DNA from: Saprospiraceae bacterium
GTDB taxonomy: Bacteria > Bacteroidota > Bacteroidia > Chitinophagales > Saprospiraceae
DNA: 64,000 nt
Assembly: GCA_040080915.1 (NCBI GenBank)
Contig: JBEBHD010000001.1
Span: 83 to 64,082 of the forward strand
Reading direction: 5' to 3'
Part shown: piece by piece, positions 21,763 to 52,608 of the stretch
Numbering within the stretch: the stretch's first letter is position 1
How the letters are laid out: each line of letters starts with the position of its first letter
Position numbers and translations under genes: made by a program
The notes under the pieces: model-generated
What the model was told of the DNA's origin: nothing
The model's input: only the letters and a program-made list of their open reading frames with translations
Databases searched by the model: none

Positions 21763-21782
21763 TTTTAATAGCATTGTCTCTC

Positions 21783-26823: not shown

Positions 26824-26981
26824 AAATGACTCGCCGAAACTTGGCCGTTGACCATGTTTGGAATGGCCTGGCCACCAGAGTGGGGTATCCGAAGCGGGTA
26901 CATGGCCGCCTACCGCTGGTGCTGGTAGCAGGGTCAGGCAGTTTCCCTACTTTTGCTGCGCGAAAAAATGCCTGCTCGGCC

Positions 26982-31088
<4,107 letters not shown>

Positions 31089-36700: not shown

Positions 36701-37398
36701 GCGGCTACGGCTACATCAACAAAAGCGGCAACACCGGCACCTCCTCCGGCACGCACGACTACTCCATCTACGCCAGCGACCGCATCGCAGGTTCCGAGTT
36801 CAACGCCCACTCCGATGCCCGCATCAAGCACGTGCGCGGCCGCAGCGACAACGCCGCCGACCTCGAAACCTTGATGCAGTTGAAAATCACCGACTACACC
36901 CTGATTGACACGGTGGCAAAAGGCACAAAGCCCTACAAAAAAGTCATCGCCCAAGAGGTCGAGCAGGCCTACCCGCAGGCCGTTTCGACCATCCCTGGCG
37001 TGACGGTGCCAGACATTTACCGCCTGAGCAAAATCGAGGGCGGCTTTGTTGCTTTGGAAAATTCAAACCTGAAACCCGGCGAGCGCGTCAAACTCATTTT
37101 TGGGGAAAAACAAGACATCGCCGAGGTCACGGCGGTGTCCGAAAAAGGGTTCCAGACCAAATTGACCGCTGAAAACGGCCAGGTCTTCGTGTTTGGCCGC
37201 GAGGTATCCGACTTCCGCACGGTGGATTACGAGGCACTTTCGATGCTCAACATCTCCGCGACGCAGGAATTGGTGAAAACCATCGCCCGCCAGAACGAGA
37301 CCATCAGCGCACTAAAATCGGAGATCTCGAGCATGAAAAACGACATTCAACTCATCAAAGCGGCTTTGCAAAAGGGCGCAACGACAACGGAGAAATAG
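33712..37398 (+). CDS. Tail-fibre-like secreted protein with C-terminal peptidase S74 (intramolecular chaperone of endosialidase/tail spike) domain
   Basis: Signal peptide MQKHSTLRMLALAAGLSLIVSTISAQA. Four copies of the module GIGTTSPxxKLDVSGTTKTTNFQMTxGAxxGYVLQSDASGNAxWVA. Three GIGTxxPxNKLDVEGxLAIG units. Near the C-terminus EFNAHSDARIKHVRGRS...LMQLKITDYTLID...KKVIAQEVEQAYPQAVS (S74-like), followed by a terminal coiled coil. Confidence 0.8.
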   Translation: MQKHSTLRMLALAAGLSLIVSTISAQAPQAIPYQAVARNAAGNLLQNQTVGVRFTIHDGTATGTVVYQETHNTATNQLGLFSLNIGSGTVVSGSFAGINWGISSKFAQVEIDPAGGMSFVDMGTVQMLSVPYALYAASSGSAVTENDPKVGSSSTNYLPKWNGTTLVDGQIFDDGTNVGIGTTSPSQKLDVSGTTKTTNFQMTDGATDGYVLQSDASGNATWVAPSSVFSDTDTDGQNLSLSGVTLSIDNGNSVDLSGLADNLGNHTATQNLQTNGNWLSNDGDNEGVFIKTDGKVGIATNDPATELHVKDGDTPTLRMEQNGGSFSPYIWDIGANEANFFVRDLTFGGDKLPFRIFPGNNSNRIAIKSNNVGIGTTSPASLLDVNGTTKTIGFQMPTGAGAGLVLQSDASGNATWVAPTGLSVTETDPQVSSSATNYVPKWNGTALTDGLLFDNGTNIGIGTTSPGALLDIQAATLARLNLQSNLFSSYLRLTSPGSGDNSRESAIEASSYVSGTAYKRWLFGKGSGNEIGGNAGSDFFLNRYDDNGNYLGQPLVIRRSTGFVSVGHADPQTQLDVSGTTKTTNFQMTNGATSGYVLQSDASGNASWVAATSLSVTENDPQVSSSTTNRVPRWTGSTLSDGTMFDNGTNVGIGTTSPASKLDVEGGLAVGSTYSGLFPAPTDGAIIQGTVGIGTSTPINKLDVEGNLAIGNNYSGTSSAPSNGAIIQGSVGIGTNSPANKLDVEGSLAIGINYSGTTAAPSNGAIIEGNVGIGTSSPSQKLDVSGTTKTTNFQMTNGAANGYVLQSDASGNASWVAPATLTTAAPAQIQDADADTKIQVEESSNENKIRFDLGGTERWVMQGARLESNNSGHSVFIGEGAGANDNLTDNQNVFLGYLTGAANTTGFNNVAIGTGALNANTTGNNNTMIGSFAGNSTTGSGNVFIGAGAGVNESGSDKLYITNTITTTPLIDGDFALSQLKINGNLVIDGSVSQNIGGYGYINKSGNTGTSSGTHDYSIYASDRIAGSEFNAHSDARIKHVRGRSDNAADLETLMQLKITDYTLIDTVAKGTKPYKKVIAQEVEQAYPQAVSTIPGVTVPDIYRLSKIEGGFVALENSNLKPGERVKLIFGEKQDIAEVTAVSEKGFQTKLTAENGQVFVFGREVSDFRTVDYEALSMLNISATQELVKTIARQNETISALKSEISSMKNDIQLIKAALQKGATTTEK

Positions 37399-39737: not shown

Positions 39738-40532
39738 TTAGAAATCTCCTCCGAGCATGGCCACGAAATCATCTTTTTTTCGGCGAGAGATTTCCACTTT
39801 CGAGCCATCGCTCATTTCGACATAACCGCCGTCGGTTTTTATGTAGCGGCGCAGGTGGGCGAGGTTGATGATATGCGAATGGTGTACACGGCAAAAATTT
39901 TGCTTTTCGAGAACGGCCTCGTATTCGCCCATCGTGCGCGACACGACCACTTTGTCGTGGTTGGCTAAATAGAATGTCGTGTAGTTGGAGTCCGATTGAA
40001 GCCGAACAATGTCGGCCACCAGCACGAACATCAATCCGTCTCCAAGTGGCAGGGCAATCCGTTGAGGTTCCGGTTTTTGTACCTGCTGGAAGAGCCGTTC
40101 CAGTGCGCTGAAATCCGTTAGTGCTGCTGCCCGCTGCTGGCGTACTTTTCTGACGGCAGCCTCCAGTTCGTCAAGGTCTATGGGCTTCAACAGGTAATCG
40201 GCCGCCGACACTTTGAAGGCCTGCAGCGCGTATTGGTCGTAGGCGGTGGTGAAAATGACGGCGCAGTTAAATTTGCCGAGTTTTTCAAGCAATTCAAAAC
40301 CGGTCATGTGCGGCATCTGGATATCGAGGAACAGCAAATCGGGCTGCCGTTCCCGGATGAGTTCCAGGCCCTGGTTCGGGTCGTTGGCAACAGCCATTAC
40401 CTCCACGTCGGGGCTGGTCATGCGGAGCATATTGGTGAGGGCTTCGGTGGCGTTGGGTTCGTCGTCTACAAGTATGGCAGTCATGATCGGTGTTGGTTTG
40501 ATTTGTTTGTTGATGTGTTGCTTCGGCTTCAT
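39738..40532 (-). CDS. LytR/AlgR-family response regulator (REC + LytTR DNA-binding domain)
   Basis: ILVDDEPNATEAL...DLLFLDIQMPHMTGFELL...VIFTTAYDQYALQAFKVSAADYLLKP, then a LytTR-like C-terminus (VRLQSDSNYTTFYL...HHSHIINLAHL). The start at 40532 overlaps the kinase stop by 4 nt (ATGA). Alternative ATG at 40484 (MTAILVDDEP). Confidence 0.9.
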   Translation of the reverse strand: MKPKQHINKQIKPTPIMTAILVDDEPNATEALTNMLRMTSPDVEVMAVANDPNQGLELIRERQPDLLFLDIQMPHMTGFELLEKLGKFNCAVIFTTAYDQYALQAFKVSAADYLLKPIDLDELEAAVRKVRQQRAAALTDFSALERLFQQVQKPEPQRIALPLGDGLMFVLVADIVRLQSDSNYTTFYLANHDKVVVSRTMGEYEAVLEKQNFCRVHHSHIINLAHLRRYIKTDGGYVEMSDGSKVEISRRKKDDFVAMLGGDF

Positions 40533-43500
40533 CCGATCATCGGCATCCGCACGACTACCTTCGTCCCGCGTGCCAGCCCCTGCTCGTCGTACAAGTCTTC
40601 AAAATGTAGTCGAATGTCCTGATCTAATTGGGTGTTGAGCAGATCGAGGCGGTGGCGGATGTTGGCAAGGCCCGTGGACCGATAGTTTTTCGGGCGATCT
40701 TTTTCGATTTCTCCTGCACGTGTACGACCCACACCGTCGTCCTCGATTTCGCAAACAATGGTTTTTTCATCGGCTTTCAGGAAGCGTATCAGGAGTTGGC
40801 CCGGTTCGGTTTTGTGCATCAGGCCGTGCCAGATGGCATTCTCGATATGGGGCTGGACAAGCATCCCCGGAATGGAGAGCGATTCGGGATTCAGGTTGCT
40901 ATCTATTTGGAAATCAAATGAAAACCGATTATTGAAGCGCAACTGCTCCAACTCGGTGTAGTAGCGCAGCAACTCGATCTCGCGGGCGAGCGGCACCATC
41001 GGCGACTCGGAGTTTTCCAGAATGAGCCGCATCAGGCGGGCGAACTTGGTCAAGTATTTACTGGCCTCGCGGGGGTCGTTTTTCAGGATAAAGTTCTGCA
41101 CCGAGTTGAGTGCATTGAACACGAAGTGCGGGTTCATCTGGGAGCGCAATGCCTTCATCTCGAGATCGGCCAATTGCTGGCGTATCTGCGCTTTTTCTTT
41201 CTCCCGGCCTTCCACAACGCTGATTTGACGGCGGTACAGCCACCAGCCTACAGCGATTAAAGCAGCCAATAGCGAAAATTGGAACGTCCAGGTTTGCCAC
41301 CAGGGCGGGTAAATTATGATGTTCAGCGCGGCTTCTTCTGTGCCCCACACGCCATCGCTGTTGGCCGTGCGGGCGCGGAAGACATAGTGGCCGGGAGCAA
41401 GGTTGAGGAAGTTGGCGAAGTTGTCGGTTCCGGCCTCCTTCCAAGCGGCGGGGCTACCTTTCGGTTCCATGCTGTATTGGTAGCGGTTTGCCGGACCGTT
41501 GATGTAGTTAACCCCGGTGAACTCGATCCGCAGATCGTTTTGGCTGTACCGCAAGGCCAACGGGCCGGATGTAGGCATCGAAAGGGGTTGGTCGGACACC
41601 CGCAGCCCGGTGATGAATGTGGGCAGTGCGGGCGCAGCAGCGCCAACTTTGTCCGGTTCGAACAGGCACATTCCCCGATCGGTAGAAACAAACAGGATGT
41701 TGCGGACCGTATCCAAAAGTTCAACATGGACGATCGTGTTGGAGAGCAGCCCGTCCGTCTGGTAGAAGCTGCGCAGTTGGCGGCTACGCGAGTCGTACCG
41801 GCTCAGGCCGTATGCGGTGGCAAACCAAACATTGCCGTCTCTGTCGAGACACGCTCCTTCCGGGTCATTGGTAACCAAGCCGTTGTTTTTCCCGAAGGGC
41901 CGCACTTGCCGGGTACGGGTGTCCATGACAAACCACCCTTGCACGGTATGCAGCCAGAGGTTGCCGTGTGGGTCGGCCATGAGGTCGAAGGCTTTGGCAC
42001 AGGCCATGTTGGCCGGGCAGTTGGGTTCAATTTTTTCAAAAACGCCTGTTGTGCGCCGCCAACGAGCAAGGTATTTTTCTTCATCGCCAAAACTAAACCA
42101 CATATCGCCGTCGGGGCTTTCGGCGCAAGCGGTGGCCGAAACGAGCGGGAACGGCGCTCCTTCTCCCCGGCTCTGGAAGTGGGTTAATTGGCGGCTACGG
42201 GTGTCGAAATAGCACACGCCATTGTCGCGAACCCGCCCCCAGATGCGGCCATAATGGTCGCGACAGATGAACCGATGATCCAGAGAATCCAGCCCCCGGA
42301 AGCGTTCTTTGAGCGGGCCGTTGGTATTGCGCACGGGATTGTACCAGTACAGGCCCGCCATGGTGTTCATCCAGAGCGTGTCGCCCCGGTCGGGCGCGAA
42401 ATCGCGGACGTAGGCGTAACTGCGAAAATCATTATCGAGCACCGGCCCGGTCACGCCAAGGCTGGTTTTGTCCATGCTGTACAGGCCGCCGTTGCGGCTG
42501 CTCACGACCCATTTGCCCGCGCGTTCGGCACAGGTGAAGCCAAACCACTCTTCGGAGACGCCCATGGCGGCCATCATTTTTTTATGCGCCGTGTTGAGTG
42601 CGGCCATGTGGGTAGTTGGCAGTTTTTTGAGGGTCAAAAAATAGATGCCCTCGAAGCGCGGGCAAAGCCAGAGGTTGCCGTCGCGGTCCACGAAATTGAC
42701 GATCCCCTTGCCGTCGGGGGCGGAGGTTTTCCAGGCGGGCAGGTCGGTGGTGGAGCCATCCCGCAGGTCATAGATGACGGGGGCGCCGAAGTAGCGTTGG
42801 AGGAACAGCAGGCTGTCGGGCAGCAAAAAAGGCAGGTAGTAGTGGCCTTTGCGCTGTTCAATGGGGTCGGCAAATGTGTTCCGCAGCAAGGTGCGGGTCG
42901 TGCGGGTTGCCCAGTCGAAGCGGTAAAGTGTGACAGGCGATTTGGTGCCGATCATGGTGTACCAAACGCTGGTCAGGTTGCCGTCCCAGGCAACACAGTC
43001 GCTTCGAATAGCGGTATCAAGCACCCCGCTCCCCGGCAGATGCTGTGCCAACGGCGTTGTTTTCTGTTTTTGAAAATCAATAATTTGCCAGGGGAGGTAG
43101 TATGGAGGAACGGGTTGCCGGCACTTCACGGCGACGATACCGTCGGGAAGTTCCAAAAAATCAAGGACGAAATAGTTGTCGATTGCCTCGCCGGGCCGCA
43201 CAGGTTTGAGATAGGATTGTGTCACCCGGAGCCGGTCGTCCAGCAGATGCACGCCTGTGCCCGTTCCGACCCAAATCTGCCCGTTTCGGGAGCGGTGCAG
43301 TTTAAGGATTACCAGCTCGTTTTTCAAAAACTCTTTTCGGGTAGGCAGCACGACGGGTTCAAATTCCAGGCGGCGGGTGTGCAGCACGAACAACCCTTTC
43401 TCGGTGCCCACGAGCAGCCGGTGCCCGGACAGTGCGAGCACTTTGGTGATTCGGTCCGTTGGCAAACCCTTCCCGTCGGCGTGGTGGAAAAACGACGTGA

Positions 43501-43858
43501 ATCGCTCGCCGTCGAAGCGATTTAGCCCTTCGACCGTACCAAACCACAGGAACCCGCCGTCGTCCTGCGCGATACTCGTGACCCAATTGCTCGACAAGCC
43601 CTGCTCCATCGTGTAGTGCTGGAAACGAGAGAATTTGTCTGTGATTTGCTGATTGGGGAATTTAGGCGCTGTTTGAGTATACGAGCAGGTGGCTGTAGCC
43701 AGCAGCAGCACAATGTACACCAGAACGCTGTTCGGGCGGAACGTGCAGACACACCATATAAACCGTATCGGGTGAGCACTCATCATTTGGCTCAAAGGTC
43801 GGTCAAGTGCCCGAAACCGACGTAACCAATTGCTCGGCCAAAGTTGCCAGTTGCTCAT
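40529..43858 (-). CDS. Sensor histidine kinase: two-component-regulator propeller + Y_Y_Y sensor, TM, LytS-type His_kinase + HATPase
   Basis: Propeller motifs (GLSSNWVTSIAQDDGGFLWFGTVEGLNRFDG). HYVFRARTANSDGVW (Y_Y_Y). TM helix. LRSQMNPHFVFNALNSVQNFI (PF06580-like). PGMLVQPHIENAIWHG and EDDGVG. The true start may be the internal MMSAHP at about 43786. Confidence 0.85.
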   Translation of the reverse strand: MSNWQLWPSNWLRRFRALDRPLSQMMSAHPIRFIWCVCTFRPNSVLVYIVLLLATATCSYTQTAPKFPNQQITDKFSRFQHYTMEQGLSSNWVTSIAQDDGGFLWFGTVEGLNRFDGERFTSFFHHADGKGLPTDRITKVLALSGHRLLVGTEKGLFVLHTRRLEFEPVVLPTRKEFLKNELVILKLHRSRNGQIWVGTGTGVHLLDDRLRVTQSYLKPVRPGEAIDNYFVLDFLELPDGIVAVKCRQPVPPYYLPWQIIDFQKQKTTPLAQHLPGSGVLDTAIRSDCVAWDGNLTSVWYTMIGTKSPVTLYRFDWATRTTRTLLRNTFADPIEQRKGHYYLPFLLPDSLLFLQRYFGAPVIYDLRDGSTTDLPAWKTSAPDGKGIVNFVDRDGNLWLCPRFEGIYFLTLKKLPTTHMAALNTAHKKMMAAMGVSEEWFGFTCAERAGKWVVSSRNGGLYSMDKTSLGVTGPVLDNDFRSYAYVRDFAPDRGDTLWMNTMAGLYWYNPVRNTNGPLKERFRGLDSLDHRFICRDHYGRIWGRVRDNGVCYFDTRSRQLTHFQSRGEGAPFPLVSATACAESPDGDMWFSFGDEEKYLARWRRTTGVFEKIEPNCPANMACAKAFDLMADPHGNLWLHTVQGWFVMDTRTRQVRPFGKNNGLVTNDPEGACLDRDGNVWFATAYGLSRYDSRSRQLRSFYQTDGLLSNTIVHVELLDTVRNILFVSTDRGMCLFEPDKVGAAAPALPTFITGLRVSDQPLSMPTSGPLALRYSQNDLRIEFTGVNYINGPANRYQYSMEPKGSPAAWKEAGTDNFANFLNLAPGHYVFRARTANSDGVWGTEEAALNIIIYPPWWQTWTFQFSLLAALIAVGWWLYRRQISVVEGREKEKAQIRQQLADLEMKALRSQMNPHFVFNALNSVQNFILKNDPREASKYLTKFARLMRLILENSESPMVPLAREIELLRYYTELEQLRFNNRFSFDFQIDSNLNPESLSIPGMLVQPHIENAIWHGLMHKTEPGQLLIRFLKADEKTIVCEIEDDGVGRTRAGEIEKDRPKNYRSTGLANIRHRLDLLNTQLDQDIRLHFEDLYDEQGLARGTKVVVRMPMIG

Positions 43859-44110: not shown

Positions 44111-45508
44111 TCAGGGTCTTTTCTCTGCTTTCGCCTCCACCTTTTTCAAATTTTCCTCGAAAAGGCCCAGGTTGGGGTCGTTGCCCGATTTGCCGATTTC
44201 CACTGCTTTCCGATAGGCTTTGACCGCTTCTGTATTTTTGCCGTTTACCACAAGCGCCTCTCCGTAGCTGTCGTACACGTTGGCTGAATTGGGAAACAGC
44301 ACCGTGTTGCAGTAAAAAATAGCCTCGGCGGTTTTGGGGTTGTTGTGGCCCATCAGGTACTCGTAGCCCAAGCCGTTGATGTCGGGTTCGTCCAACAAGC
44401 CTGCTTCCGTTATTTTTTTCAGGCTCGTCAAAAGTTTGTCCGTCGCGCCGGAGTACTTGTCCAACTGGTTGAATGCTTCGAGCAGCAGGGCCGCGTGTTG
44501 CTCTTTGTTTTTCCGGCGATAATCGGCGGCGGCGGCTTTAGCCAGTTCCAGTGCCTTGTCCAGCGCCCCGGCTTCGGGTACCGACACCTCGGGTACCACC
44601 CCAACGCCTTCCCAGTTGGTTTTCGTGACCGGATTGATGGCTCTGCCGGTTGGCAAAAAGACGGCGAGTTTGTCGTTCACCGGCATCATGCCGCCTGGGT
44701 TGGCGCCGCCGCCGGTGGTTTCGCCCACGAGTGTTGCCCGTTTTTGGGTCTGCATGTTGTAGGAAAACTCTTCTGCGCCCGAAAACGTGAACTTGCTGGT
44801 GAGCACGAACAGGGGCACGTCGGGCATTTTTTTGCCGCCCACTTTGTCGAGCGTCCAGAACTCCTCCGTGCGGTCGCCCTCCCGCCAGTAGAGGCTGTTC
44901 AGGTGTACGCGTTTGTCGAAGAAGTAGCTGCACAGGTACTGCACCATTTTCGGGCTGCCGCCGCCGTTTTTCCGAAGGTCAATGATGACAGCATCCGAGG
45001 TGGCGAGAAGGGCCATGGAGTGATCTGCGATGGGTGAGCCTGCTTGTGGATGTGCAAAGCCCCGCAGGTCGAGGTAGCCAATATTGCCTTCGAGTTTTTG
45101 GGCGGCGGCAAATCCTGCGTTGACTTCCCGCTGCCGCGCCCGGTCTTGCAGGCGGCCTTCGGCCATCTGCTCTGCCGTGGCTGTTTGCCCCTTTTGCGCC
45201 GGCGCCGGGCGGACACGCAAGTGTTTGTCATTCGCGATAACCTGTGCTTCCCGGGTGAGCGCATCGGCGAAGGATTTTACGTCCTGGTGTTTGTCAAAAT
45301 CACCTGCCTTGAGCCGATTTTTCAGGTGTTCTCCGGTGGCTTTGGCCGCTTCCGGAGACACGTAGTGCTGCTGGAGCAGGGCGTCAAGTTGTTCAATAGT
45401 CGTTTGCTTGAACTCCGGCGTAAGTACGGATTCTTGCGAAACGGCGTGTTGTGTGGTCGAGAGGAAAAGCAGGCACAGCAATGTCAGTGATGACAGGTTT
45501 TGTTTCAT
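44111..45508 (-). CDS. S41-family (tail-specific/C-terminal processing type) serine peptidase with C-terminal TPR-like region
   Basis: Start at MKQNLSSLTLLCLLFLSTTQHAVSQ (signal peptide, ATG complement at 45506-45508). GNIGYLDLRGF, IIDLRKNGGG, TSKFTFSGAEEF (Ser nucleophile context), VGETTGGGA. The C-terminal helical repeats resemble TPRs. Confidence 0.85.
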   Translation of the reverse strand: MKQNLSSLTLLCLLFLSTTQHAVSQESVLTPEFKQTTIEQLDALLQQHYVSPEAAKATGEHLKNRLKAGDFDKHQDVKSFADALTREAQVIANDKHLRVRPAPAQKGQTATAEQMAEGRLQDRARQREVNAGFAAAQKLEGNIGYLDLRGFAHPQAGSPIADHSMALLATSDAVIIDLRKNGGGSPKMVQYLCSYFFDKRVHLNSLYWREGDRTEEFWTLDKVGGKKMPDVPLFVLTSKFTFSGAEEFSYNMQTQKRATLVGETTGGGANPGGMMPVNDKLAVFLPTGRAINPVTKTNWEGVGVVPEVSVPEAGALDKALELAKAAAADYRRKNKEQHAALLLEAFNQLDKYSGATDKLLTSLKKITEAGLLDEPDINGLGYEYLMGHNNPKTAEAIFYCNTVLFPNSANVYDSYGEALVVNGKNTEAVKAYRKAVEIGKSGNDPNLGLFEENLKKVEAKAEKRP

Positions 45509-45800
45509 AGCATCGGTATAGTTTGTGAACGAAAAATTTCGGAAGCAGGCTCCCGGACACCGGCCTGCCTTCACGGGTTACAAGATGCGACTACGAATGT
45601 TCCGTTAGGGGAAAATTCGATGACACTTCTCCAGATGCCTGTGAAGGGGATTTATATGGGTGCCGACGGAACCGTTCCGTTTTCGGGAAAAGGCCACAAA
45701 CTGGGACATAAAAAAACGGGTTGGTTTGCGAGCAGCAGGGGTACCACCCCAAACCAACCCGTAAACCAACCCGTTTGAAACCGGCAAATAGAACGGCCTC

Positions 45801-46376
45801 TTACTTTTTAAGAAACTTTTCCAGCACCGACTGGGGTGTCTGACCCGCGCCGAGGTTTTTGGGCTTGCCCGAAGCGTCTTTCCACTCGAACTTAATTTTT
45901 GTAAAATTGAGGCTGAACGAATCCGTCGGGGCTGCGTTGCTGCTTCCTTGCGTTCCAGCGCTAAAGCTGGAGACCAACACATCTTTCAACTCGTAGGTAA
46001 GTTGGTCACCACCACCTTTGCGGACAAACAAAATAGCCTCCTTGTGGTGCTTACCTGTTGCTGATGACCTCATTAGGTCGGGCGAAGACTTATCGGTTAT
46101 TTTCATGATACTGATATCGTGTACGGAGACCTTCCCGGCTCCACCGCTGCTGCCTTGCTCCCTTGTGCCCTGGTTGGATATTACCCAACTGAAAGAATCA
46201 AGAACGATGCATCCCCTGCATTTTGGGTCGGATGACTCGCCGTCAATTCCGTCGATTTTGAGGAAGTAGTCCACATGGGCGGCCTGGGGTTTGTTTGGAT
46301 TGGCAATGGGTTTGTTTTGGGAGAAAGCAAGCAGCGGAGCGGCTGCGAAAAGAGTCGCAATTAATACGTTTTTCAT
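45801..46376 (-). CDS. Hcp (type VI secretion tube protein) family homolog carrying an N-terminal Sec signal peptide
   Basis: After MKNVLIATLFAAAPLLAFSQ plus a short linker, the sequence follows canonical Hcp1: YFLKIDGIDGES, LDSFSWVIS, GGAGKVSVHDISIMKITDKSSPDLMRSSATGKHHKEAILFVRKGGGDQLTYELKDVLVSS, SFSLNFTKIKFEW. Compare P. aeruginosa Hcp1 from memory: GGAGKVNVQDLSFTKYIDKSTPNLMMACSSGKHYPQAKLTIRKAGG. Confidence 0.8.
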   Translation of the reverse strand: MKNVLIATLFAAAPLLAFSQNKPIANPNKPQAAHVDYFLKIDGIDGESSDPKCRGCIVLDSFSWVISNQGTREQGSSGGAGKVSVHDISIMKITDKSSPDLMRSSATGKHHKEAILFVRKGGGDQLTYELKDVLVSSFSAGTQGSSNAAPTDSFSLNFTKIKFEWKDASGKPKNLGAGQTPQSVLEKFLKK

Positions 46377-46544
46377 GACTGAGAGTGTGTGTTTGCAAAT
46401 GTGGTGAACAATCGTTTTTGACACAACAAAGGTCATTGCCCGGGGCAGCGCAAGTGTTCAAGGTATTATCAAAAAGGATAAAAAAGTGCAAAAATCAACG
46501 GCCTGCGCTGCCAACCGAATCGAGCGCCGGTAATGACCAGGCTT

Positions 46545-46630
46545 TTTAGGTTTTGAAACCTGCCGTGTGTGCCAGATGCTCACGGACATCTGCCATTTGC
46601 TCGCCGGGGGTTTGGGGCGGACGACAGGGC
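46545..46630. repeat. Copy B of the dispersed repeat seen at 43870-43968 (weaker palindrome + conserved ~60-bp core)
   Basis: AGGTTTtgAAACCT (about 46549-46562), then GCCAGATGCTCACGGacatctGCCATTTGCTCGCcgGGGGTTTGGGGCGGACGACAGGGC (46571-46630). Same orientation as copy A. Confidence 0.8.
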
Positions 46631-46683
46631 GGGCACTTTTGTGTCACCAATCTCCTCGAACTACATTTCTATACAGCCCTCCC

Positions 46684-47205
46684 ATGTACACAGAAAAGCA
46701 GTATTTCCAGAACCGACACACCCGATGGCTTAAATGGCTATGCGCCGGAGTCGCGATCGTGCAATTGATCCTGCTCATCGCCGCCGAAACCGGCCAATCT
46801 TGGCTGCCGCTGGGGGATACTGCGCATTGGGGCATTTTACTGGTTTCAGGGCTGGCATTCAGCCTGCTTTCGCATATCGTTTTGGTGCTGCGGGTGGGCG
46901 CGCGTGGAGTCTCCCTGCGGTATTTTCCCTTCCAGTTGCGCTTCCAACATGTCTGCTGGGACGAGATTCGCCAACTGCGCCTGCTTCCATTGGGCGAATG
47001 CCCGACGGGTGCGCAGTTTGGGTTGCCGGGGCGCGATTTCACGCATGCCTACTGGCTCAGTACACCCAGGCACGCTGTGTTGCACATCACCTTAGTGAAC
47101 GGCACCCAACTCTACGTCTCGACCGAGCGGCCAGCGGAGCTGCTGGATTTTTTGCGGCATGGGCTGCAAGTACATGGTAGGAAAGTCTGTGCGGAGTGGG
47201 TGTGA
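46684..47205 (+). CDS. Hypothetical small membrane protein
   Basis: Start at MYTEKQYFQNRHTRWLKW. Two predicted TM helices, then a soluble C-terminal region. I recognise no family. The upstream part of the 46567 ORF lies in the repeat and is unlikely to be coding. Confidence 0.45.
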   Translation: MYTEKQYFQNRHTRWLKWLCAGVAIVQLILLIAAETGQSWLPLGDTAHWGILLVSGLAFSLLSHIVLVLRVGARGVSLRYFPFQLRFQHVCWDEIRQLRLLPLGECPTGAQFGLPGRDFTHAYWLSTPRHAVLHITLVNGTQLYVSTERPAELLDFLRHGLQVHGRKVCAEWV

Positions 47206-47319
47206 AACCACTTACGCACCCGTCCCCGCCACTTGCGCAGTGCCTCTTTCCCGCCCCTCTCCGCCGCCTGACTTTTGTATCGTCAATCAAAATTTTTTTC
47301 AAAAAAACTGCCCGACGAT

Positions 47320-50300
47320 ATGAAATATCTGTTCGCAACCCTACTCTTCCTTGCCGCCTTCACGGCGCAAACCTCCGCTGCCATCTGGTACGTCAACCCC
47401 AACGGCAGCGATGCCAACACGGGCGACTCCTGGGGGGCTGCTTTCCAAAATGTCCAAACAGCCATTAGTGCAAGCACCGATGGCGACGAAATCTGGGTGG
47501 CCGAAGGCACATACCTGCCCACGTTAATGTGGGCAGGCAATACCAACCGCCACAGGACATTTTTTGTCAACTTCGATGTCAAACTCTTCGGCGGCTTTAC
47601 CGGCGCCGAGACGATGCGCGACCAGCGCGACTGGGTAGCCCACCCGACCATCCTTAGCGGCGACCTCGGCGTGCAGGACAACTTTTCCGACAACGCCTAC
47701 CACGTCGTATGGATCAATGGCCGAAGCAGCGCGATGGAGCTGGACGGATTTACCATTACCAAGGGCATGTGTGATGGCCTGAACAGCAATGTCAACGACC
47801 GGGGCGCAGGCATTTACAACACCGCCGAAAACTACAACTCCACCCCGACTATCCGCAACTGTACCGTCACGGGCAACTTTGGCGGTTCGTTCGGCTATGG
47901 GGCCGGGATGTACAACTACGGCGCACACGATGCCTCGGCAACGCTGACAGACTGCACGTTCTTCGGCAACGCCGAGACGGAAGACGGCGGCGCGATGTAC
48001 AACTACGCGGCTTCTCAGGGCATCGCCTCGCCGGTGCTGACGAACTGCGCGTTCACCAACAACTCCGCAGGGTATGGCGGCGCGGTGGCTAACAAGGCTG
48101 AATATGGCGGTGTTTGCGCCCCGGTGCTGACCAACTGCACGTTCAACAACAACTACGCATTGGTCAATGGCGGCGCGATGTTCAACTGGGATAACATCAG
48201 CGCCCCGGTGCTGAACAACTGCACATTCAGCACTAACTCGGCAGGGAACCAAGGTGGCGCCATTTTCCACCAGGCGGAAATCCTCACCCTCAACAATTGC
48301 TCTTTGAACAACAACACGGCGGAGAACGGGGGCGGGCTGCTGGTGCTCGCCGGAGGGGTGCTCGCTACGGACTGCACGTTTTCGGGCAATACTGCGACCA
48401 TGACAAGCGGCGGGGCGGTAGATATCTGGGGATTTCCCTCCGAGGCGTTTACGTTCCTGCGTTGCACCTTTTCGGACAATTCGGCAACCAACGGCGGGGC
48501 TGTAAGTTTGGACATAGACTACACCCTCACCCTCGAGGCGCTGTTCGACCGCTGCACGTTTTCGGGCAATTCGGCAACCAACGGCGGGGCACTGTACACT
48601 GCGGGCAGCCATGATGCCGGCACCCTGAACGTCACGCTGCTCAACTGCCGCCTCTTCGACAACACCGCCGGCGAGCGCGGCGGGGCGTTTTGTTCTGGCG
48701 GCAACTACGGCAGCGGCTTTTCGAAGATGTACCACTGCACATTCTACAACAACACCGCCACTCTCGGCGGCGGCGCGGTAGGCACCTCTAACTATATCGC
48801 CAACCAGCCAACGCCCTCTCTGCACAACTGCATCGCCTGGAACAACTCTTCCACCTTCGGCCAAACAGTGAATGGTCAGGGCGGAGTCCTCATCCAATAC
48901 TCGCTTATCCAGGAATCTGGCTGCCCGACGGGCGCAGGTTGTGGTGTGAGCCTCTACAACCTCGACCCGCTCTTCATCAACGTTGCCGCCCACGACTTTC
49001 ACTTACAAAGTAACTCGCCCGCCAAAAATACCGGCGCGAATGTTCCCGTGACGCAAGATTTTGACGGCACTTCCCGTCCGCAAGGGCCTGCGTTTGACAT
49101 GGGCGCGTTCGAGGTGCCGGTGGTGTGCCCACCCGGCCCGGTAGTTTTTGTGGACAAAGACGCGACCAGCGGTGCCGATAACGGTACGTCCTGGGGGGAT
49201 GCTTTCGTCCACCTGCAAGATGCGCTTGATGCGGCGGCTGACTGCCCCGGTACCGTGGAAGAAATCTGGGTGGCTGAAGGCACCTACCTGCCCACCGCCA
49301 TGTGGGCCGGCAATACCGACCGCCACAAAACATTTTTTGTCAATCACGATGTCAAAATCTTCGGCGGCTTCGACGGCACGGAAATCCTGCGCGACGAGCG
49401 CGACTGGGTGGCGCACCCGACCATCCTGAGCGGCGACCTCGGCGTGGCGAACAACATGGCCGACAACACCTACCACGTCGTGTGGATCGAAGGACGCAGC
49501 AGCGCGATGGAGCTCGACGGCTTCACCATCACCAAAGGAAAGTTGCACCACAGCGACCAGATACATAGTTGGGGCGCAGGCATTTACAACAACGCCGACC
49601 ATCAGGCTTCGACCCCGACCATTCGCAACTGCACCATCACCGGCAACGAAGGCAACACAAATACGCGCGGCGCGGGCATGTTCAACAAAGGGTACTTCGG
49701 CGATGCCTCGCCGACGATGACGGACTGTACGTTTTCCAACAACACTGTGCCCGGCAACTCCAACGGCGGCGCGATGTACAATTATGCCTTTGGCCCAACA
49801 GGCATCGCTTCACCGGTGATGACCGATTGCGCGTTCACGAACAACTACGCGGCGTTTCGCGGCGGCGTATTATACAACTCGGTGGAGAACAGCGGCACCT
49901 GCGCCCCGGTGCTAACCGACTGCACCTTCACGGGCAATACGACCACCTACCAGAGCGGCGGTGCCATCTACCACGTCGGGCAAGAACTCACGCTGGACAA
50001 CTGCACCTTCACCAACAACTCTGCCTTTATCGGCGGAGCGATAGGCGTAACCCAAGGGTTTGTGACCGCAACAGATTGCTCCTTTTTGGGCAATAGCGCC
50101 CCTGCCAACTCGGGCGCGGTCAGCATTTCAGGTGCCGACGTGACCTCCACCTTCACGCGCTGCACTTTCTCGAACAACAGCACCCCGGCAAAAGGCGGTG
50201 CGGTAACGGTGTACTCTTCCTTCGGCTCCACACTTGTCGTGGCGTTCGACCGATGCACTTTTTCCAACAACTCGGCGGCCAACGGCGGCGCGGTGTACAC

Positions 50301-52608
50301 TTCCGGAATCAGTGATGCCAACTTGATCGTCACCCTGTACAACTGCCGCTTGTTTGGCAACACCGCCACCGGGCGCGGCGGCGCGCTCTGCTCTGGCCGC
50401 AACGATGGCTTGGGCTACACCCTGTGCGTCAACTCCACTTTTTACAACAACACCGCCCCGCAGGGCGGCGGCGGCGCGATGGGCACCTTGGATGTGCGGC
50501 CTAACCAGGCAGTTCCCGCGCTCATCAACTGCATCGCTTGGGGCAACTCCTCCACCTTCGGCCAAACGGCTGGCGGTCAGGGCGGGCTGAGCATCGAGTT
50601 CAGCCTCATACAAGAGGCCGCTTGCCCGACGGGCGCAACTTGTGGCAACGGCATGATTTACAACAAAAACCCGCTCTTCGTGAATGCAGCCGCCAACAAC
50701 TTCCACCTCCAAGCCTGCTCTCCGGCAGTGGATATGGCCGACATGGGCTATTCACCCGCCATTGATTTTGACAACATGGCGCGCCCGCAAAACGGCGGCT
50801 ACGACATGGGCGCGTTCGAGTACGTCGGCGTGCCATGCCTACCGGAGGCGAAGTGCAAAAATAGCACGGTCAACCTCAGCGCGGCAGGAACCGTCAGCGT
50901 CCCGGCAGGCAGTATTGACAACGGGAGCACCGGCTGCGAGCTGCAATTCCAGATCAACAACCAGAGCGCCCATATCTACACTTGTGCCAACGTCGGGGCC
51001 AACGTCGCCACGCTAACCGTCACCGACTGCAACAACAACACCGACGATTGCACGGCCACTGTGACCGTGGTGGATAACATCGCGCCTACCATTACCTGCC
51101 CCGGCCCCGTCAGCGTGTCCTGTACCGGCAACGCCCCCGTCAACCTCGCTTCGGTCACCGCTAATGACAACTGCGGCTCACCGGCCAAATCGCACGTCGG
51201 CGACGTAAGCTCCAACCAAACCTGCGTCAACCGCAAAACTATCACCCGAACCTACCGCGCCACCGATGGCTCCGGCAACAGCATCACCTGCGCCCAGATT
51301 ATCACCGTGTACGACGACGTAAAACCGAACTTCTCCTCACTGCCCGCCAACGTGACCGTTCAGTGCAACAGTGTGCCCGCTGCGGGTAGTCCTGCGGCCT
51401 CCGACGGCTGCGGCGGCACGGTGACCATTGCCTACAACGGCCAGACTACCGTGCCCGGCGCTTGCCTGGATGCCTATACGATCACCCGCCAATGGACGGC
51501 CACCGATGCCTGCGGCAACACGAAAACCGCCACGCAACGCATCACGGTAGTGGATACGCAAAAGCCCAATTTCACTGGCACGCCAGCCAATATCACGGTG
51601 CAGTGCAGCGCCATCCCGAACCCGGCTACTCCCACGGCAACTGATAACTGCGATGCGGTAGTAGCCATTACCTACAACGGCCAAACGACCACCGCCGGCA
51701 CTTGCGCCAATGCCTACACGCTGACCCGAACCTGGACTGCCACCGACAACTGCGGCAATACGCGCACCATTACGCAGCGCATTGCGGTGGTGGACAACGG
51801 CAAACCGGTGTTCACGTCATTCCCGGAAAACACTACCATCACTTGCAATGAAACACCGCCAGCAGTGGGCAACCCCACGGCTTCGGACGGATGCGGAAAC
51901 ACCACCGTGACGTACCTCGGCCAATCCTCCACGGGCGGTTCGTGCCCGGGCAACCATCAACTCAAACGTACCTGGCGCGCTACCGATGCCTGTGGCAACA
52001 GCACCGTGGCCACGCAAACGATCCAGGTGTCGGATGTTGGAGCACCGGAGTTCACCTCGGTACCCGGACCGCTCACCATCGAGTGCACCGACCCGCTGCC
52101 GCCGCTCGTGAACCCGACGGCCACGGATGCCTGCAGCGGGTATGTACACATCACCTTCCTCGGCAATGCGGCCTCCGGCAGCGGTTGCTCGGCGGACTAC
52201 ATCATCACGCGCACCTGGCGGGCTGATGATTTGTGCGGAAATACGGCTACGACGACTCAGGTGGTCACCGTGCTGGGGAATAATTACGGAGAAGAAGGCA
52301 CGGAAAACCGGGATGCGATCAGACAACCGACGGAGGACGGGCGACCACTAGTATCTTCCATACGGGTACATCCGAATCCGACGACGGATCGGGTTTGGCT
52401 CGACCTGACGGACTATGCTGGCGAAGCTATCACGGTTTCGATTTTTAGCGATTTGGGGCAGTTGATTTGGGAAAACCGGATTCCGGCTGTGGAAGATTTG
52501 AAAATGTCGGTCAGCCTGCTTGAAGCGGGCGCAAAGGCGGGAATGTACACCGTCAGCGTGAACTCGGCATGCGGAGTAATGGCGAAGCGGATGGTGCTGG
52601 TGGAGTAA
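47320..52608 (+). CDS. Giant T9SS cargo protein 3: duplicated right-handed parallel beta-helix head (polymorphic-membrane-protein / choice-of-anchor-Q-like) + HYR-like stalk + T9SS sorting domain
   Basis: Signal peptide MKYLFATLLFLAAFTAQTSA. Two ~570-aa modules, each beginning GxSWGxAF..LQxA....EIWVAEGTYLPT..WAGNT.RH.TFFVN.DVK.FGGF.GTE..RD.RDWVAHPTILSGDLG and continuing with GGA(I/M/V)(Y/F)N / C(T/A)F..N repeats. HYR-like stalk from about 51075. C-terminal VHPNPTTDRVWLDL...GMYTVSVNS...MVLVE. Confidence 0.8.
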   Translation: MKYLFATLLFLAAFTAQTSAAIWYVNPNGSDANTGDSWGAAFQNVQTAISASTDGDEIWVAEGTYLPTLMWAGNTNRHRTFFVNFDVKLFGGFTGAETMRDQRDWVAHPTILSGDLGVQDNFSDNAYHVVWINGRSSAMELDGFTITKGMCDGLNSNVNDRGAGIYNTAENYNSTPTIRNCTVTGNFGGSFGYGAGMYNYGAHDASATLTDCTFFGNAETEDGGAMYNYAASQGIASPVLTNCAFTNNSAGYGGAVANKAEYGGVCAPVLTNCTFNNNYALVNGGAMFNWDNISAPVLNNCTFSTNSAGNQGGAIFHQAEILTLNNCSLNNNTAENGGGLLVLAGGVLATDCTFSGNTATMTSGGAVDIWGFPSEAFTFLRCTFSDNSATNGGAVSLDIDYTLTLEALFDRCTFSGNSATNGGALYTAGSHDAGTLNVTLLNCRLFDNTAGERGGAFCSGGNYGSGFSKMYHCTFYNNTATLGGGAVGTSNYIANQPTPSLHNCIAWNNSSTFGQTVNGQGGVLIQYSLIQESGCPTGAGCGVSLYNLDPLFINVAAHDFHLQSNSPAKNTGANVPVTQDFDGTSRPQGPAFDMGAFEVPVVCPPGPVVFVDKDATSGADNGTSWGDAFVHLQDALDAAADCPGTVEEIWVAEGTYLPTAMWAGNTDRHKTFFVNHDVKIFGGFDGTEILRDERDWVAHPTILSGDLGVANNMADNTYHVVWIEGRSSAMELDGFTITKGKLHHSDQIHSWGAGIYNNADHQASTPTIRNCTITGNEGNTNTRGAGMFNKGYFGDASPTMTDCTFSNNTVPGNSNGGAMYNYAFGPTGIASPVMTDCAFTNNYAAFRGGVLYNSVENSGTCAPVLTDCTFTGNTTTYQSGGAIYHVGQELTLDNCTFTNNSAFIGGAIGVTQGFVTATDCSFLGNSAPANSGAVSISGADVTSTFTRCTFSNNSTPAKGGAVTVYSSFGSTLVVAFDRCTFSNNSAANGGAVYTSGISDANLIVTLYNCRLFGNTATGRGGALCSGRNDGLGYTLCVNSTFYNNTAPQGGGGAMGTLDVRPNQAVPALINCIAWGNSSTFGQTAGGQGGLSIEFSLIQEAACPTGATCGNGMIYNKNPLFVNAAANNFHLQACSPAVDMADMGYSPAIDFDNMARPQNGGYDMGAFEYVGVPCLPEAKCKNSTVNLSAAGTVSVPAGSIDNGSTGCELQFQINNQSAHIYTCANVGANVATLTVTDCNNNTDDCTATVTVVDNIAPTITCPGPVSVSCTGNAPVNLASVTANDNCGSPAKSHVGDVSSNQTCVNRKTITRTYRATDGSGNSITCAQIITVYDDVKPNFSSLPANVTVQCNSVPAAGSPAASDGCGGTVTIAYNGQTTVPGACLDAYTITRQWTATDACGNTKTATQRITVVDTQKPNFTGTPANITVQCSAIPNPATPTATDNCDAVVAITYNGQTTTAGTCANAYTLTRTWTATDNCGNTRTITQRIAVVDNGKPVFTSFPENTTITCNETPPAVGNPTASDGCGNTTVTYLGQSSTGGSCPGNHQLKRTWRATDACGNSTVATQTIQVSDVGAPEFTSVPGPLTIECTDPLPPLVNPTATDACSGYVHITFLGNAASGSGCSADYIITRTWRADDLCGNTATTTQVVTVLGNNYGEEGTENRDAIRQPTEDGRPLVSSIRVHPNPTTDRVWLDLTDYAGEAITVSIFSDLGQLIWENRIPAVEDLKMSVSLLEAGAKAGMYTVSVNSACGVMAKRMVLVE

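What the first reader, a model, noticed from the sequence alone, without database searches (positions are those of the whole stretch)
45801..46376. Orphan Hcp homolog with a cleavable-looking Sec signal peptide and no T6SS genes nearby
The mature region aligns convincingly with canonical Hcp1 through the GGAGKV...DKSSP.LM....GKH......RK.GG core. The protein starts with a classical signal peptide (MKNVLIATLFAAAPLLAFSQ) and a ~13-aa Pro/Asn/Lys-rich linker. Hcp tube proteins are cytoplasmic and are exported through the T6SS without a signal peptide. No TssB/C, VgrG, TssK or other T6SS genes are in the window, and the neighbour is a secreted S41 protease. This suggests an Hcp fold moved to the periplasm or cell surface for a T6SS-independent role, such as a ring-shaped chaperone or carrier, or a decoy.
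Basis: partly seen in the sequence, partly recalled or inferred. Interest (0 to 1): 0.65.

Follow-up and report, generated by a model that had tools for sequence, protein, structure and literature searches.

The report
Sec-exported orphan Hcp ring protein
A freshwater Saprospiraceae bacterium encodes a real homologue of the type VI secretion tube protein Hcp that carries a standard export signal and sits far from any secretion-machine genes, and similar exported Hcps occur in many lineages, including archaea that cannot have this machine, so the Hcp fold appears to have an undescribed second role outside the cytoplasm.

Summary
The minus-strand ORF 45801-46376 (191 aa) matches Pfam T6SS_HCP over the whole profile (E 1.3e-29). 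It aligns to P. aeruginosa Hcp1 from residue 32, and its AF2 model matches solved Hcp structures.

Residues 1-19 look like the signal peptides of bona fide T9SS cargo on the same contig (AFS|Q, the Bacteroidetes Q-rule).

No T6SS gene lies in the 64 kb. Across related loci, 66 of 70 Hcps without an extension have T6SS core genes within 10 kb, against 0 of 13 exported-type Hcps (p = 4.5e-12).

Exported-type Hcps occur in Saprospiraceae, Lewinellaceae, Saccharibacteria, SAR202, Pedosphaera, Nitrosopumilaceae and cultured Nitrososphaera viennensis. They have mostly lost a cysteine that is near-invariant in the cytoplasmic relatives (9/56 vs 60/62). The window's clade has instead gained an invariant CxxC.

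Best reading: a Sec/SPI-exported periplasmic Hcp that works independently of T6SS and probably forms rings. Its ligand and role are unknown. I found no description in the searched literature. This is a new variant of a known kind.

The parts
45801..46376 (-). Complete CDS of the exported Hcp homologue (191 aa; stop codon at 45801-45803).
   Evidence: ORF list and sequence. Pfam PF05638 E 1.3e-29. The MKNVL/MKHVL start is conserved in homologues. In L011 and L013 the reading frame opens only one codon upstream of this Met, so the longer ATG start at 46436 is not conserved.
46320..46376 (-). Predicted Sec/SPI signal peptide, residues 1-19 (MKNVLIATLFAAAPLLAFS). Predicted cleavage is AFS|Q.
   Evidence: Translation verified. 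The n/h/c-region features match T9SS cargo of the same contig. Q at +1 fits the Bacteroidetes Q-rule (PMC5837995, PMC10653852). There is no Cys, so it is not a lipoprotein. AF2 pLDDT is below 50 for residues 1-22.
46278..46319 (-). Clade-conserved linker, residues 20-33 (QNKPIANPNKPQAA). It would be the N-terminal tail of the mature protein.
   Evidence: Conserved as Q-N-N-R-x-A-G-P-N-K-P-Q-A-A across Saprospiraceae/Lewinellaceae homologues. Codons 2-34 give dN/dS of about 0.1-0.5, similar to the first 32 domain codons.
45873..46277 (-). Hcp beta-barrel domain, residues 34-168.
   Evidence: Pfam covers 38-165. PDB 1Y12 alignment covers 32-167. In the AF2 model most 10-residue blocks of the domain have mean pLDDT 83-97, apart from the 68-81 loop and a dip at 141-150. 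Foldseek top hits are all Hcp structures, TM (target-normalised) 0.72-0.78, probability 1.00. The core residues shared by all Hcps are retained.
46209..46220 (-). CxxC motif (C53-R-G-C56). It replaces the H-x-x-E/T of other Hcps.
   Evidence: Cys at both positions in 18/18 members of the window's clade and in 0/100 other relatives. A disulfide is inferred, not shown.
45804..45872 (-). Clade-specific C-terminal tail, residues 169-191 (SGKPKNLGAGQTPQSVLEKFLKK), with a predicted terminal helix at 181-190.
   Evidence: The tail KNLGAGQTPxSVLxKFLKK is conserved only in the Saprospiraceae/Lewinellaceae clade and differs from the canonical ...DG(S/T)L....K..WDLK.N tail. AF2 predicts a helix at 181-190. 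No Por_Secre_tail match; no PEP-CTERM motif seen by reading the tail.
45709..45762 (-). Intrinsic-terminator-like hairpin plus U7 run, about 40 nt after the hcp stop codon.
   Evidence: RNA fold of 45690-45805(-): about 20-bp GC-rich stem followed by UUUUUUU, MFE -47.7 kcal/mol, z = -3.6 against shuffles. Sequence verified. This suggests hcp is a separate transcription unit from the S41 gene.
44111..45508 (-). Downstream neighbour: a secreted S41 peptidase (Peptidase_S41_N + Peptidase_S41 + C-terminal TPR), with likely start at the Met of MKQNLSS....
   Evidence: Pfam. Signal peptide with AVS|Q. The hcp-S41 adjacency is conserved in four Saprospiraceae species representatives (window, L001, L010, L013) but not in Lewinellaceae L005.

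Best explanation
The gene encodes a true Hcp-fold protein that has been moved to the extracytoplasmic space.

Proposed pathway:
1. The pre-protein is targeted to the Sec translocon by a type I signal peptide.
2. Signal peptidase I cuts between S19 and Q20. As in most Bacteroidota Sec substrates, the new N-terminal Gln is probably cyclised to pyroglutamate.
3. The clade-specific CxxC probably forms a disulfide in the periplasm.
4. The mature protein is about 172 aa: a 14-residue Pro/Asn/Lys-rich tail, the Hcp barrel, and a clade-specific C-terminal helix. It folds in the periplasm of this diderm Saprospiraceae bacterium.
5. It has no T9SS C-terminal domain and no lipobox, so the periplasm (or outer-membrane vesicles) is its expected location.

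It acts without sheath, baseplate or ClpV, so it is not a T6SS tube subunit. It keeps the residues shared by all Hcps, so it most likely still forms hexameric rings and uses the ring as a binding or carrier scaffold for an unknown partner.

It belongs to a broad, so far uncharacterised class of signal-peptide or membrane-anchor-bearing orphan Hcps found in bacteria and archaea.

Shown here: Hcp homology and fold; a translated and selected N-terminal extension with signal-peptide features; absence of T6SS genes nearby; class-wide decoupling from T6SS loci; the cysteine shift.

Inferred: actual export and cleavage, the disulfide, ring formation, and the function.
For: Homology and fold:
- Pfam full-profile match, PDB Hcp1 alignment, AF2 model plus Foldseek.

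Signal peptide:
- Same pattern as T9SS cargo on the same contig and absent from its cytoplasmic proteins. Q-rule literature.

The extension is coding:
- dN/dS is about 0.1-0.5 over codons 2-34, and many synonymous changes are present.
- Codon 35 is GTA, not GTG, in the Lewinellaceae orthologue.
- The Met start is conserved.

No T6SS context:
- No T6SS genes in 64 kb.
- 0/13 exported-type loci against 66/70 canonical loci have T6SS core genes within 10 kb, Fisher p = 4.5e-12.

Distribution:
- Exported-type Hcps occur in Ca. Saccharibacteria, Nitrosopumilaceae and Nitrososphaera, including the 2.53-Mb contig (apparently the whole chromosome) of cultured N. viennensis (AIC16927.1).
- Among the nearest relatives, 55 of 118 sequences and 53 of 88 single-domain cluster representatives carry such extensions.

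Compartment signature:
- The helix Cys at position 105 is present in 60/62 canonical but only 9/56 exported-type proteins (p = 5e-21).
- 29 of 38 other exported-type domains have no Cys at all.
- The window clade has an invariant CxxC.

Type of Hcp:
- The match is to PF05638 only. No other Hcp/TssD model reached E <= 1.
Against: - No experimental or SignalP evidence for export or cleavage. The hydrophobic segment could be an uncleaved anchor.
- Hexamer formation was not tested, because only monomer prediction was available.
- The rest of the genome is unseen, so a T6SS elsewhere cannot be excluded. Some Saprospiraceae have a T6SSiv.
- No expression data: only DNA runs hold this sequence.
- The locus comparison is not phylogenetically independent. 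The 13 exported-type loci represent about 7 lineages.
- No conserved partner gene across lineages points to a function.
Confidence: 0.72

Rival explanations
1. It is an ordinary cytoplasmic T6SS tube subunit. Translation would really start at the in-frame GTG (codon 35), giving M-DYFLKIDG..., and the 'signal peptide' would be untranslated leader. A T6SS elsewhere in the genome would use it.
For: A GTG sits at codon 35, exactly where canonical Hcps begin. The rest of the genome is unknown. Orphan canonical hcp genes do exist (L083 and L048).
Against: - Codons 2-34 show purifying selection like the domain.
- The Lewinellaceae orthologue has GTA at that codon.
- The extension is conserved at the protein level in 18 homologues down to 46% identity.
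- The conserved cytoplasmic Cys105 is lost and a CxxC is gained.
- All 13 exported-type loci lack T6SS genes.
- The one described Saprospiraceae contractile system is described with Cis components, and Hcp is never mentioned in that paper.
Confidence: 0.04
2. The N-terminal hydrophobic segment is not cleaved. It would act as a signal anchor that tethers the Hcp domain, through the Pro/Asn/Lys-rich linker, to the periplasmic face of the inner membrane.
For: - Many exported-type relatives have long N-terminal transmembrane-like segments followed by long linkers, collagen-like repeats or coiled-coil-like stalks (P0021, P0022, P0079, P0198, P0212, P0259). This looks like surface display rather than release.
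- The linker in the window clade is conserved.
Against: - The window protein has a short (16-residue) h-region and a canonical A-x-S|Q site, identical in form to cleaved T9SS cargo signals of the same contig.
- Q at +1 is the hallmark of SPI-cleaved Bacteroidota proteins (PMC5837995).
Confidence: 0.12
3. The exported Hcp is a defensive mimic. A ring in the periplasm (or under the S-layer in archaea and CPR bacteria) would rebind and sequester Hcp-borne effectors, or cap tubes, delivered by T6SS-armed neighbours or by phage-tail-like particles.
For: - The exported-type Hcps are 45-59% identical (best aligned segment) to T6SS-i Hcps of co-occurring Acidobacteria, Planctomycetes and Proteobacteria, and are interleaved with them in the tree. 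This is compatible with repeated capture.
- They occur in organisms without T6SS loci nearby, including archaea.
- The gene sits in a local GC dip.
Against: - No hit to PADLOC defence models.
- No linkage to immunity or defence genes.
- No experimental precedent found.
- The idea is purely inferential.
Confidence: 0.1
4. It is a decaying or functionless remnant of a horizontally acquired hcp gene.
For: Orphan position and lower GC than the flanks (0.48-0.50 against 0.57-0.60).
Against: - Intact ORF with dN/dS well below 1.
- Conserved across Saprospiraceae and Lewinellaceae with clade-specific conserved additions: linker, CxxC and C-terminal tail.
- It has its own terminator.
Confidence: 0.02

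Closest known systems
Hcp1 (PA0085, TssD) of the Pseudomonas aeruginosa H1-T6SS, PDB 1Y12; Pfam PF05638
   Same: Same fold and family. About 39% identity over roughly 135 residues. It shares the GGAGKV loop, the DKSSP.LM helix and the G.H......RK.GG core.
   Different: Hcp1 has no signal peptide, is cytoplasmic, is encoded in a T6SS cluster and is expelled by sheath contraction. The window protein has a 19-aa signal peptide, a 14-aa linker, a CxxC, a different C-terminal tail and no T6SS neighbours.
Contractile systems of Bacteroidota: T6SS-iii (TssD-type tubes) and the T6SSiv of Aureispira/Saprospira (Saprospiraceae)
   Same: Same phylum or family. These are the only contractile secretion machines that a Saprospiraceae genome would be expected to carry (bioRxiv 10.1101/2024.01.29.577165).
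   Different: The Aureispira paper names Cis components and never mentions Hcp. That its tube is not PF05638-type is my inference. The window protein matches only PF05638 and resembles T6SS-i Hcps of other phyla. That T6SS-iii tubes are a separate, divergent family is my recollection and was not tested here.
Evolved or specialised Hcps (Hcp-ET) with C-terminal toxin domains
   Same: Hcp domain with added sequence; sometimes orphan.
   Different: Those extensions are C-terminal toxins and the proteins still depend on the T6SS. Here the addition is an N-terminal export signal, and the C-terminal tail is only 23 aa with no toxin domain.
PEP-CTERM-bearing Hcp-domain genes, mentioned only as an exclusion criterion in Howard et al. 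2021 (PMC8262886)
   Same: Hcp-domain proteins with a cell-surface sorting signal, which (from general knowledge of PEP-CTERM proteins) implies Sec export. Their mention shows that exported Hcp domains have been seen in databases.
   Different: They were removed from that survey and not analysed. That survey also collected genes only from Gram-negative bacteria. The window protein has no PEP-CTERM tail.
Phage and tailocin tail-tube proteins (T4 gp19, lambda gpV). That they are structural relatives of Hcp is general knowledge.
   Same: Same ancient tube-protein fold that forms stacked hexameric rings.
   Different: Those assemble in the cytoplasm on a baseplate. None is known to me to be Sec-exported. 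tblastn against phage records found only domain-level matches and none with the N-terminal extension.

Membership tests
Hcp/TssD fold family (Pfam PF05638) | Significant full-length match to the family profile | tested here: met
   E 1.3e-29, 103.5 bits against a cutoff of 23.5, profile positions 1-129 of 129. NCBIfam TIGR03344 gives 40.4 bits, below its 58.9 cutoff.
Hcp/TssD fold family (Pfam PF05638) | Hcp beta-barrel with one helix and an extended glycine-rich loop | tested here: met
   AF2 mean pLDDT 79, with most 10-residue blocks of the domain at 83-97. Strand/helix order matches Hcp. Foldseek top 50 hits are all Hcp structures or Hcp1 fusion constructs.
Hcp/TssD fold family (Pfam PF05638) | Assembly into hexameric rings | not testable with these tools
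   Only monomer prediction was available. Single-sequence AF2 of a natural 6x-Hcp fusion (P0121) failed, pLDDT 34.
Functional T6SS inner-tube subunit | Cytoplasmic protein without an N-terminal signal peptide | tested here: not met
   There is a 33-residue N-terminal extension with signal-peptide features, and it is under purifying selection.
Functional T6SS inner-tube subunit | Genetic linkage to T6SS core genes (TssA/B/C/E/F/G/K, ClpV, VgrG) | tested here: not met
   None in the 64 kb. 0/13 exported-type loci against 66/70 canonical loci.
Functional T6SS inner-tube subunit | A T6SS encoded somewhere in the same genome | not testable with these tools
   Only this contig is available (the protein's longest contig is 64,185 bp).
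Sec / signal peptidase I substrate (Bacteroidota Q-rule) | Positive n-region, 7-16 residue hydrophobic h-region, small residues at -3 and -1, Gln at +1 | tested here: met
   MK / NVLIATLFAAAPLLAF / A-F-S|Q. The form is identical to T9SS cargo of the same contig (PMC5837995). SignalP itself was not run.
Bacterial lipoprotein (SPII substrate) | Lipobox with an invariant Cys at +1 | tested here: not met
   No Cys in residues 1-52.
T9SS cargo | C-terminal Por_Secre_tail / CTD domain | tested here: not met
   Only PF05638 was found at E <= 1. The C-terminal tail is 23 aa. Five other proteins of the window do match Por_Secre_tail at E <= 0.001, one of them above the gathering cutoff.
Evolved Hcp (Hcp-ET) | C-terminal effector/toxin domain fused to Hcp | tested here: not met
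   No additional domain; 191 aa in total.
Known anti-phage defence proteins (PADLOC) | Match to a defence-system model | tested here: not met
   No hits for Hcp, S41 or the upstream ORF.

The most novel reading that the evidence does not exclude
Sec-exported Hcp rings would be a widespread, T6SS-independent extracytoplasmic module of bacteria AND archaea that acts by molecular mimicry of incoming contractile weapons. The ring would sit in the periplasm or under the S-layer and would sequester Hcp-carried effectors, or cap the tubes of T6SS or phage-tail-like particles. That would make it a new kind of innate defence in organisms that do not have the weapon themselves.
Probability: 0.1. Interest if true: 0.9.

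Novelty: new variant of a known kind. Interest (0 to 1): 0.7.

Why it matters
Hcp is treated as a diagnostic T6SS component. Its presence in supernatants is the standard assay for T6SS activity, and annotation pipelines name every PF05638 protein 'T6SS tube protein' (see the source names).

This analysis shows a large, phylogenetically scattered set of Hcps that carry Sec signals or membrane anchors and are never next to T6SS genes. They occur in Saccharibacteria and ammonia-oxidising archaea, where I know of no T6SS.

Three consequences follow:
1. Many 'T6SS' annotations in metagenomes are functionally wrong.
2. The phage-tail-tube fold has been domesticated for a second, unknown extracytoplasmic job. 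This is directly testable in a cultured organism (Nitrososphaera viennensis AIC16927.1) or by heterologous expression.
3. The naturally fused 6x-Hcp secreted proteins suggest that the ring, not the tube, is the unit being reused.

Tried and rejected
- Alternative starts. The upstream ATG at 46436 is not conserved, because in L011 and L013 the frame opens only one codon before the Met. The GTG at codon 35 is rejected by dN/dS and by GTA in L005.
- Hexamer test. AF2 of the natural six-domain Hcp P0121 without an alignment gave pLDDT 34 and is uninformative.
- PADLOC: no hits.
- Rfam, whole window at gathering thresholds: no hits.
- Expression. Only DNA runs (drinking-water and biofilter metagenomes) hold the sequence, and no RNA runs were found.
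- Phage and plasmid collections. Only Hcp-domain-level matches to canonical hcp genes, none with the extension.
- Conserved partner genes across exported-type lineages. None was found beyond within-family synteny with the S41 peptidase.
- Literature. Nine full-text searches (plus 43 for the Q-rule) found no description of signal-peptide-bearing Hcps. The nearest is a methods note that PEP-CTERM-containing Hcp genes were discarded.
- One Pfam call failed on a coordinate error and was not repeated, because the first ten clusters already identified the T6SS markers.

Full report
**1. What is in the sequence**

The feature is a 576-nt ORF on the minus strand, 45801-46376, encoding 191 aa. Three lines of evidence place it in the Hcp family:
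- Pfam gives a single, full-profile match to T6SS_HCP (PF05638): E 1.3e-29, residues 38-165, profile positions 1-129 of 129.
- phmmer against PDB sequences puts P. aeruginosa Hcp1 (1Y12) first, E 4e-26. Query residue 32 aligns to Hcp1 residue 3, so about 31-33 residues precede the Hcp fold.
- An AF2 model built on a 66-sequence alignment has mean pLDDT 79. Most 10-residue blocks of the barrel have mean pLDDT 83-97. Confidence is low for residues 1-22 and for the glycine-rich loop at 68-81. There is an extra C-terminal helix at 181-190. Foldseek against the PDB returns only Hcp structures or Hcp1 fusion constructs among the top 50 hits, with probability 1.00 and target-normalised TM 0.72-0.78 for the best.

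**2. Is the N-terminal extension real and is it a signal peptide?**

SignalP was not available, so I used internal controls. Bona fide exported proteins on the same contig begin as follows:
- T9SS cargo with Por_Secre_tail: MKKIRFTGLFALLALAASA|Q and MTHKLLLSLLLLFAAAAALA|Q.
- A signal-peptide-bearing protein with a Peptidase_S74 domain: ...LIVSTISA|Q.
- The S41 protease: ...TTQHAVS|Q.

The Hcp begins MKNVLIATLFAAAPLLAFS|Q. It has the same positive n-region, a 16-residue uncharged h-region, small residues at -3 and -1, and Gln at +1. Cytoplasmic proteins of the window lack these features. Gln at +1 is the 'Bacteroidetes Q-rule' for signal peptidase I substrates (PMC5837995, PMC10653852). There is no Cys, so this is not a lipoprotein. 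There is no T9SS C-terminal domain.

The next in-frame ATG is indeed deep in the domain, but codon 35 is GTG and would give a canonical-looking M-DYFLKI... Hcp. I reject this start for three reasons:
- The Lewinellaceae orthologue has GTA there.
- Codons 2-34 show many synonymous changes, with dN/dS of about 0.1-0.5, similar to the first 32 domain codons.
- The MK(N/H)V... start, the hydrophobic segment and the linker N-N-R-x-A-G-P-N-K-P-Q-A-A are conserved in 18 homologues down to 46% identity.

The longer ORF from the ATG at 46436 is not conserved.

**3. Surroundings**

Pfam scans of 32 window ORFs (the large ORFs plus some smaller ones) found no T6SS component. The contig looks like a Saprospiraceae genome. 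The closest Hcp homologues are named Saprospiraceae or Lewinellaceae. It carries giant T9SS cargo proteins, hybrid two-component regulators and a TIR-STAND gene. The sequence occurs in drinking-water and biofilter metagenomes.

The hcp gene is followed by a strong terminator-like hairpin plus U7 (45709-45762, z = -3.6). Next comes a secreted S41 peptidase. The hcp-S41 adjacency is conserved in four Saprospiraceae species representatives but not in Lewinellaceae. It may therefore be simple synteny.

**4. The wider pattern**

Signal-peptide or anchor-like N-termini are common among the closest relatives:
- 55 of 118 relatives of at least 150 aa carry a hydrophobic extension. Many have a textbook A-x-A| immediately before the conserved (A)VDYFLKI start, for example MKRSSSLLLAIAAVALFTTLPARA|AAVDYFLK. 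Another 62 start canonically at M-A-x-(V)-D-Y.
- An exhaustive HMMER search of 1.84 billion cluster representatives with the mature region found 7171 relatives. Among the single-domain proteins in the top 150, 53 have extensions of at least 20 residues, 52 of them with a hydrophobic segment, and 35 are canonical. This ranking favours relatives of an exported query, so it shows breadth, not frequency.

I scanned one genome per GTDB species and added loci fetched by exact protein. I clustered all flanking ORFs and identified the recurrent clusters with Pfam as TssA, TssB/C, TssE, TssF, TssG, ClpV, TagJ and VgrG. The result is a clean split:
- 66 of 70 loci with an Hcp lacking an extension have T6SS core genes within 10 kb.
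- 0 of 13 exported-type loci do (Fisher p = 4.5e-12).

The 13 exported-type loci come from Saprospiraceae, Lewinellaceae, Ca. Saccharibacteria, SAR202, Pedosphaera, Nitrosopumilaceae and Nitrososphaera, plus one unnamed metagenome contig (L009). The archaeal cases are not binning artefacts. A 212-aa exported-type Hcp (AIC16927.1) lies on the 2.53-Mb contig, apparently the whole chromosome, of cultured Nitrososphaera viennensis. That contig size is the only evidence here for completeness. No T6SS genes are nearby.

In a neighbour-joining tree the window's clade is monophyletic. The other exported-type groups are interleaved with canonical ones, which suggests several independent gains. The tree is crude.

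**5. A compartment signature**

I compared alignment columns between the groups:
- The Cys in the helix motif (A-C-A-T-G, window position 105) is present in 60/62 canonical relatives but only 9/56 exported-type proteins (p = 5e-21). It is present in 0/18 members of the window's clade.
- 29 of 38 other exported-type domains have no cysteine at all.
- The window's clade has instead an invariant C-x-x-C (C53, C56) in 18/18 members, in place of H-x-x-E/T.

Loss of a free cytoplasmic Cys and gain of a cysteine pair is what one expects after a move to an oxidising compartment. The sequences are related, so the p-value overstates independence. Even so, the exported groups are spread across the tree.

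**6. Mechanism**

The most likely pathway is Sec targeting, SPI cleavage at S19|Q20, pyroglutamate formation, disulfide formation and folding in the periplasm. The residues shared by all Hcps are retained. A published survey considers these to reflect folding and ring formation (PMC8262886). I therefore infer a hexameric ring used as a binding scaffold, acting independently of any sheath or baseplate.

In its favour as a ring: the same sequence neighbourhood contains secreted giants with exactly six Hcp domains in one chain. These are fused to Ig-like, PKD, MBG, RTX or metalloprotease domains. What the ring binds is unknown.

Alternatives are an uncleaved membrane anchor, a defensive mimic of incoming T6SS or phage tubes, and, far less likely, a mis-started canonical Hcp or a relic. 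Each is listed with its test in the rival explanations.

**7. Comparison with what is known**

It is a member of the Hcp fold family. It fails two defining features of a T6SS tube subunit: it has a signal peptide, and it has no T6SS linkage.

The contractile system described in Saprospiraceae (T6SSiv of Aureispira) is described with Cis components, and the paper's text never uses the word Hcp. A T6SS elsewhere in the genome would therefore probably not use this protein. That is my inference, and it cannot be checked on one contig.

Full-text searches found no description of Sec-signal Hcps. The largest Hcp survey collected only Gram-negative genes and explicitly discarded Hcp genes with a PEP-CTERM sorting signal. 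Databases name all these proteins 'T6SS tube protein Hcp'.

**8. Verdict**

This is a new variant of a known kind: a known fold with a new export route, context and phyletic range, and an unknown function. Interest is 0.7.

Noticed in passing
not in the window; proteins P0121-P0140, P0142 and others: Giant proteins (800-3650 aa) carry exactly six Hcp domains in one chain. Two-, three- and four-domain versions also exist. Several have N-termini of the form RRxLFxExLExRRLLA and are fused to Big_13, PKD, MBG_2, RTX or Peptidase_M10 domains. They look like covalent pseudo-hexameric Hcp rings in secreted or surface proteins.
   Followed up: partly
L079:9091-9837(-) and L079:9923-10468(+); also L023, L046, L090: Ammonia-oxidising archaea (Nitrosopumilaceae, Nitrososphaera including cultured N. 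viennensis AIC16927.1) encode signal-peptide Hcps. In L079 two divergently transcribed paralogues sit side by side. One of them has C-terminal repeats (PDWIKNNAKWW...), and a 1116-aa S8 protease is next door.
   Followed up: partly
proteins P0021, P0022, P0058, P0079, P0152, P0216, P0261; P0198, P0212, P0232, P0259: A subgroup has an N-terminal transmembrane segment, then a Cys-containing module and collagen-like G-x-y repeats, or coiled-coil-like heptads, before the Hcp domain. This suggests a membrane-anchored stalk that displays Hcp.
   Followed up: no
alignment column equivalent to window residue 105 (46062-46064, minus strand): A near-invariant Cys of the closest T6SS-linked Hcps (60/62) is replaced in most exported-type Hcps (47/56). 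This could serve as a simple sequence marker for the exported class.
   Followed up: yes
window 45250-46750: There is a local GC dip to 0.48-0.52 over hcp and its intergenic regions, against 0.57-0.60 in the flanks (the hcp CDS is 0.498 against 0.57 for the window). The cause (old horizontal transfer, amino-acid composition or expression) was not resolved.
   Followed up: no
window 11024-13705 (+), with 10403-11020 (+): An 893-aa protein combines TIR, nSTAND1 NTPase and a C-terminal FGE-sulfatase domain. It is preceded by a Uma2-family endonuclease. This is a defence- or signalling-like architecture.
   Followed up: no
window 6073-10350, 21495-26720, 26826-31088, 37407-39671, 40529-43858, 47275-52608, 52687-56793, 57010-60837: Giant T9SS cargo proteins (HYR_4C repeats plus Por_Secre_tail, one with Chlamydia PMP repeats) alternate repeatedly with hybrid two-component regulators (Reg_prop/Y_Y_Y + HK + RR + AraC HTH).
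   Followed up: no
window 33712-37398 (+): A 1228-aa signal-peptide protein has a Peptidase_S74 (endosialidase intramolecular chaperone) domain, as in phage tail fibres.
   Followed up: no
WIN (S41), L005 (S9), L079 and L008 (S8), L009 (M10): Peptidase genes (signal peptide checked only for the window's S41) lie from adjacent to about 4 kb from exported-type hcp in several unrelated lineages. This may be chance, since peptidases are common, and it was not tested statistically.
   Followed up: no
L048 (Actinomycetes MAG), L071 (Actinomycetota MAG), L083 (Bosea): Hcps with no N-terminal extension recognised by my scan (for L071 the motif search failed and L051 was a short locus), and without T6SS genes within the flanks. 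Two are from Actinomycetota, a phylum in which I would not expect a T6SS (my recollection).
   Followed up: no
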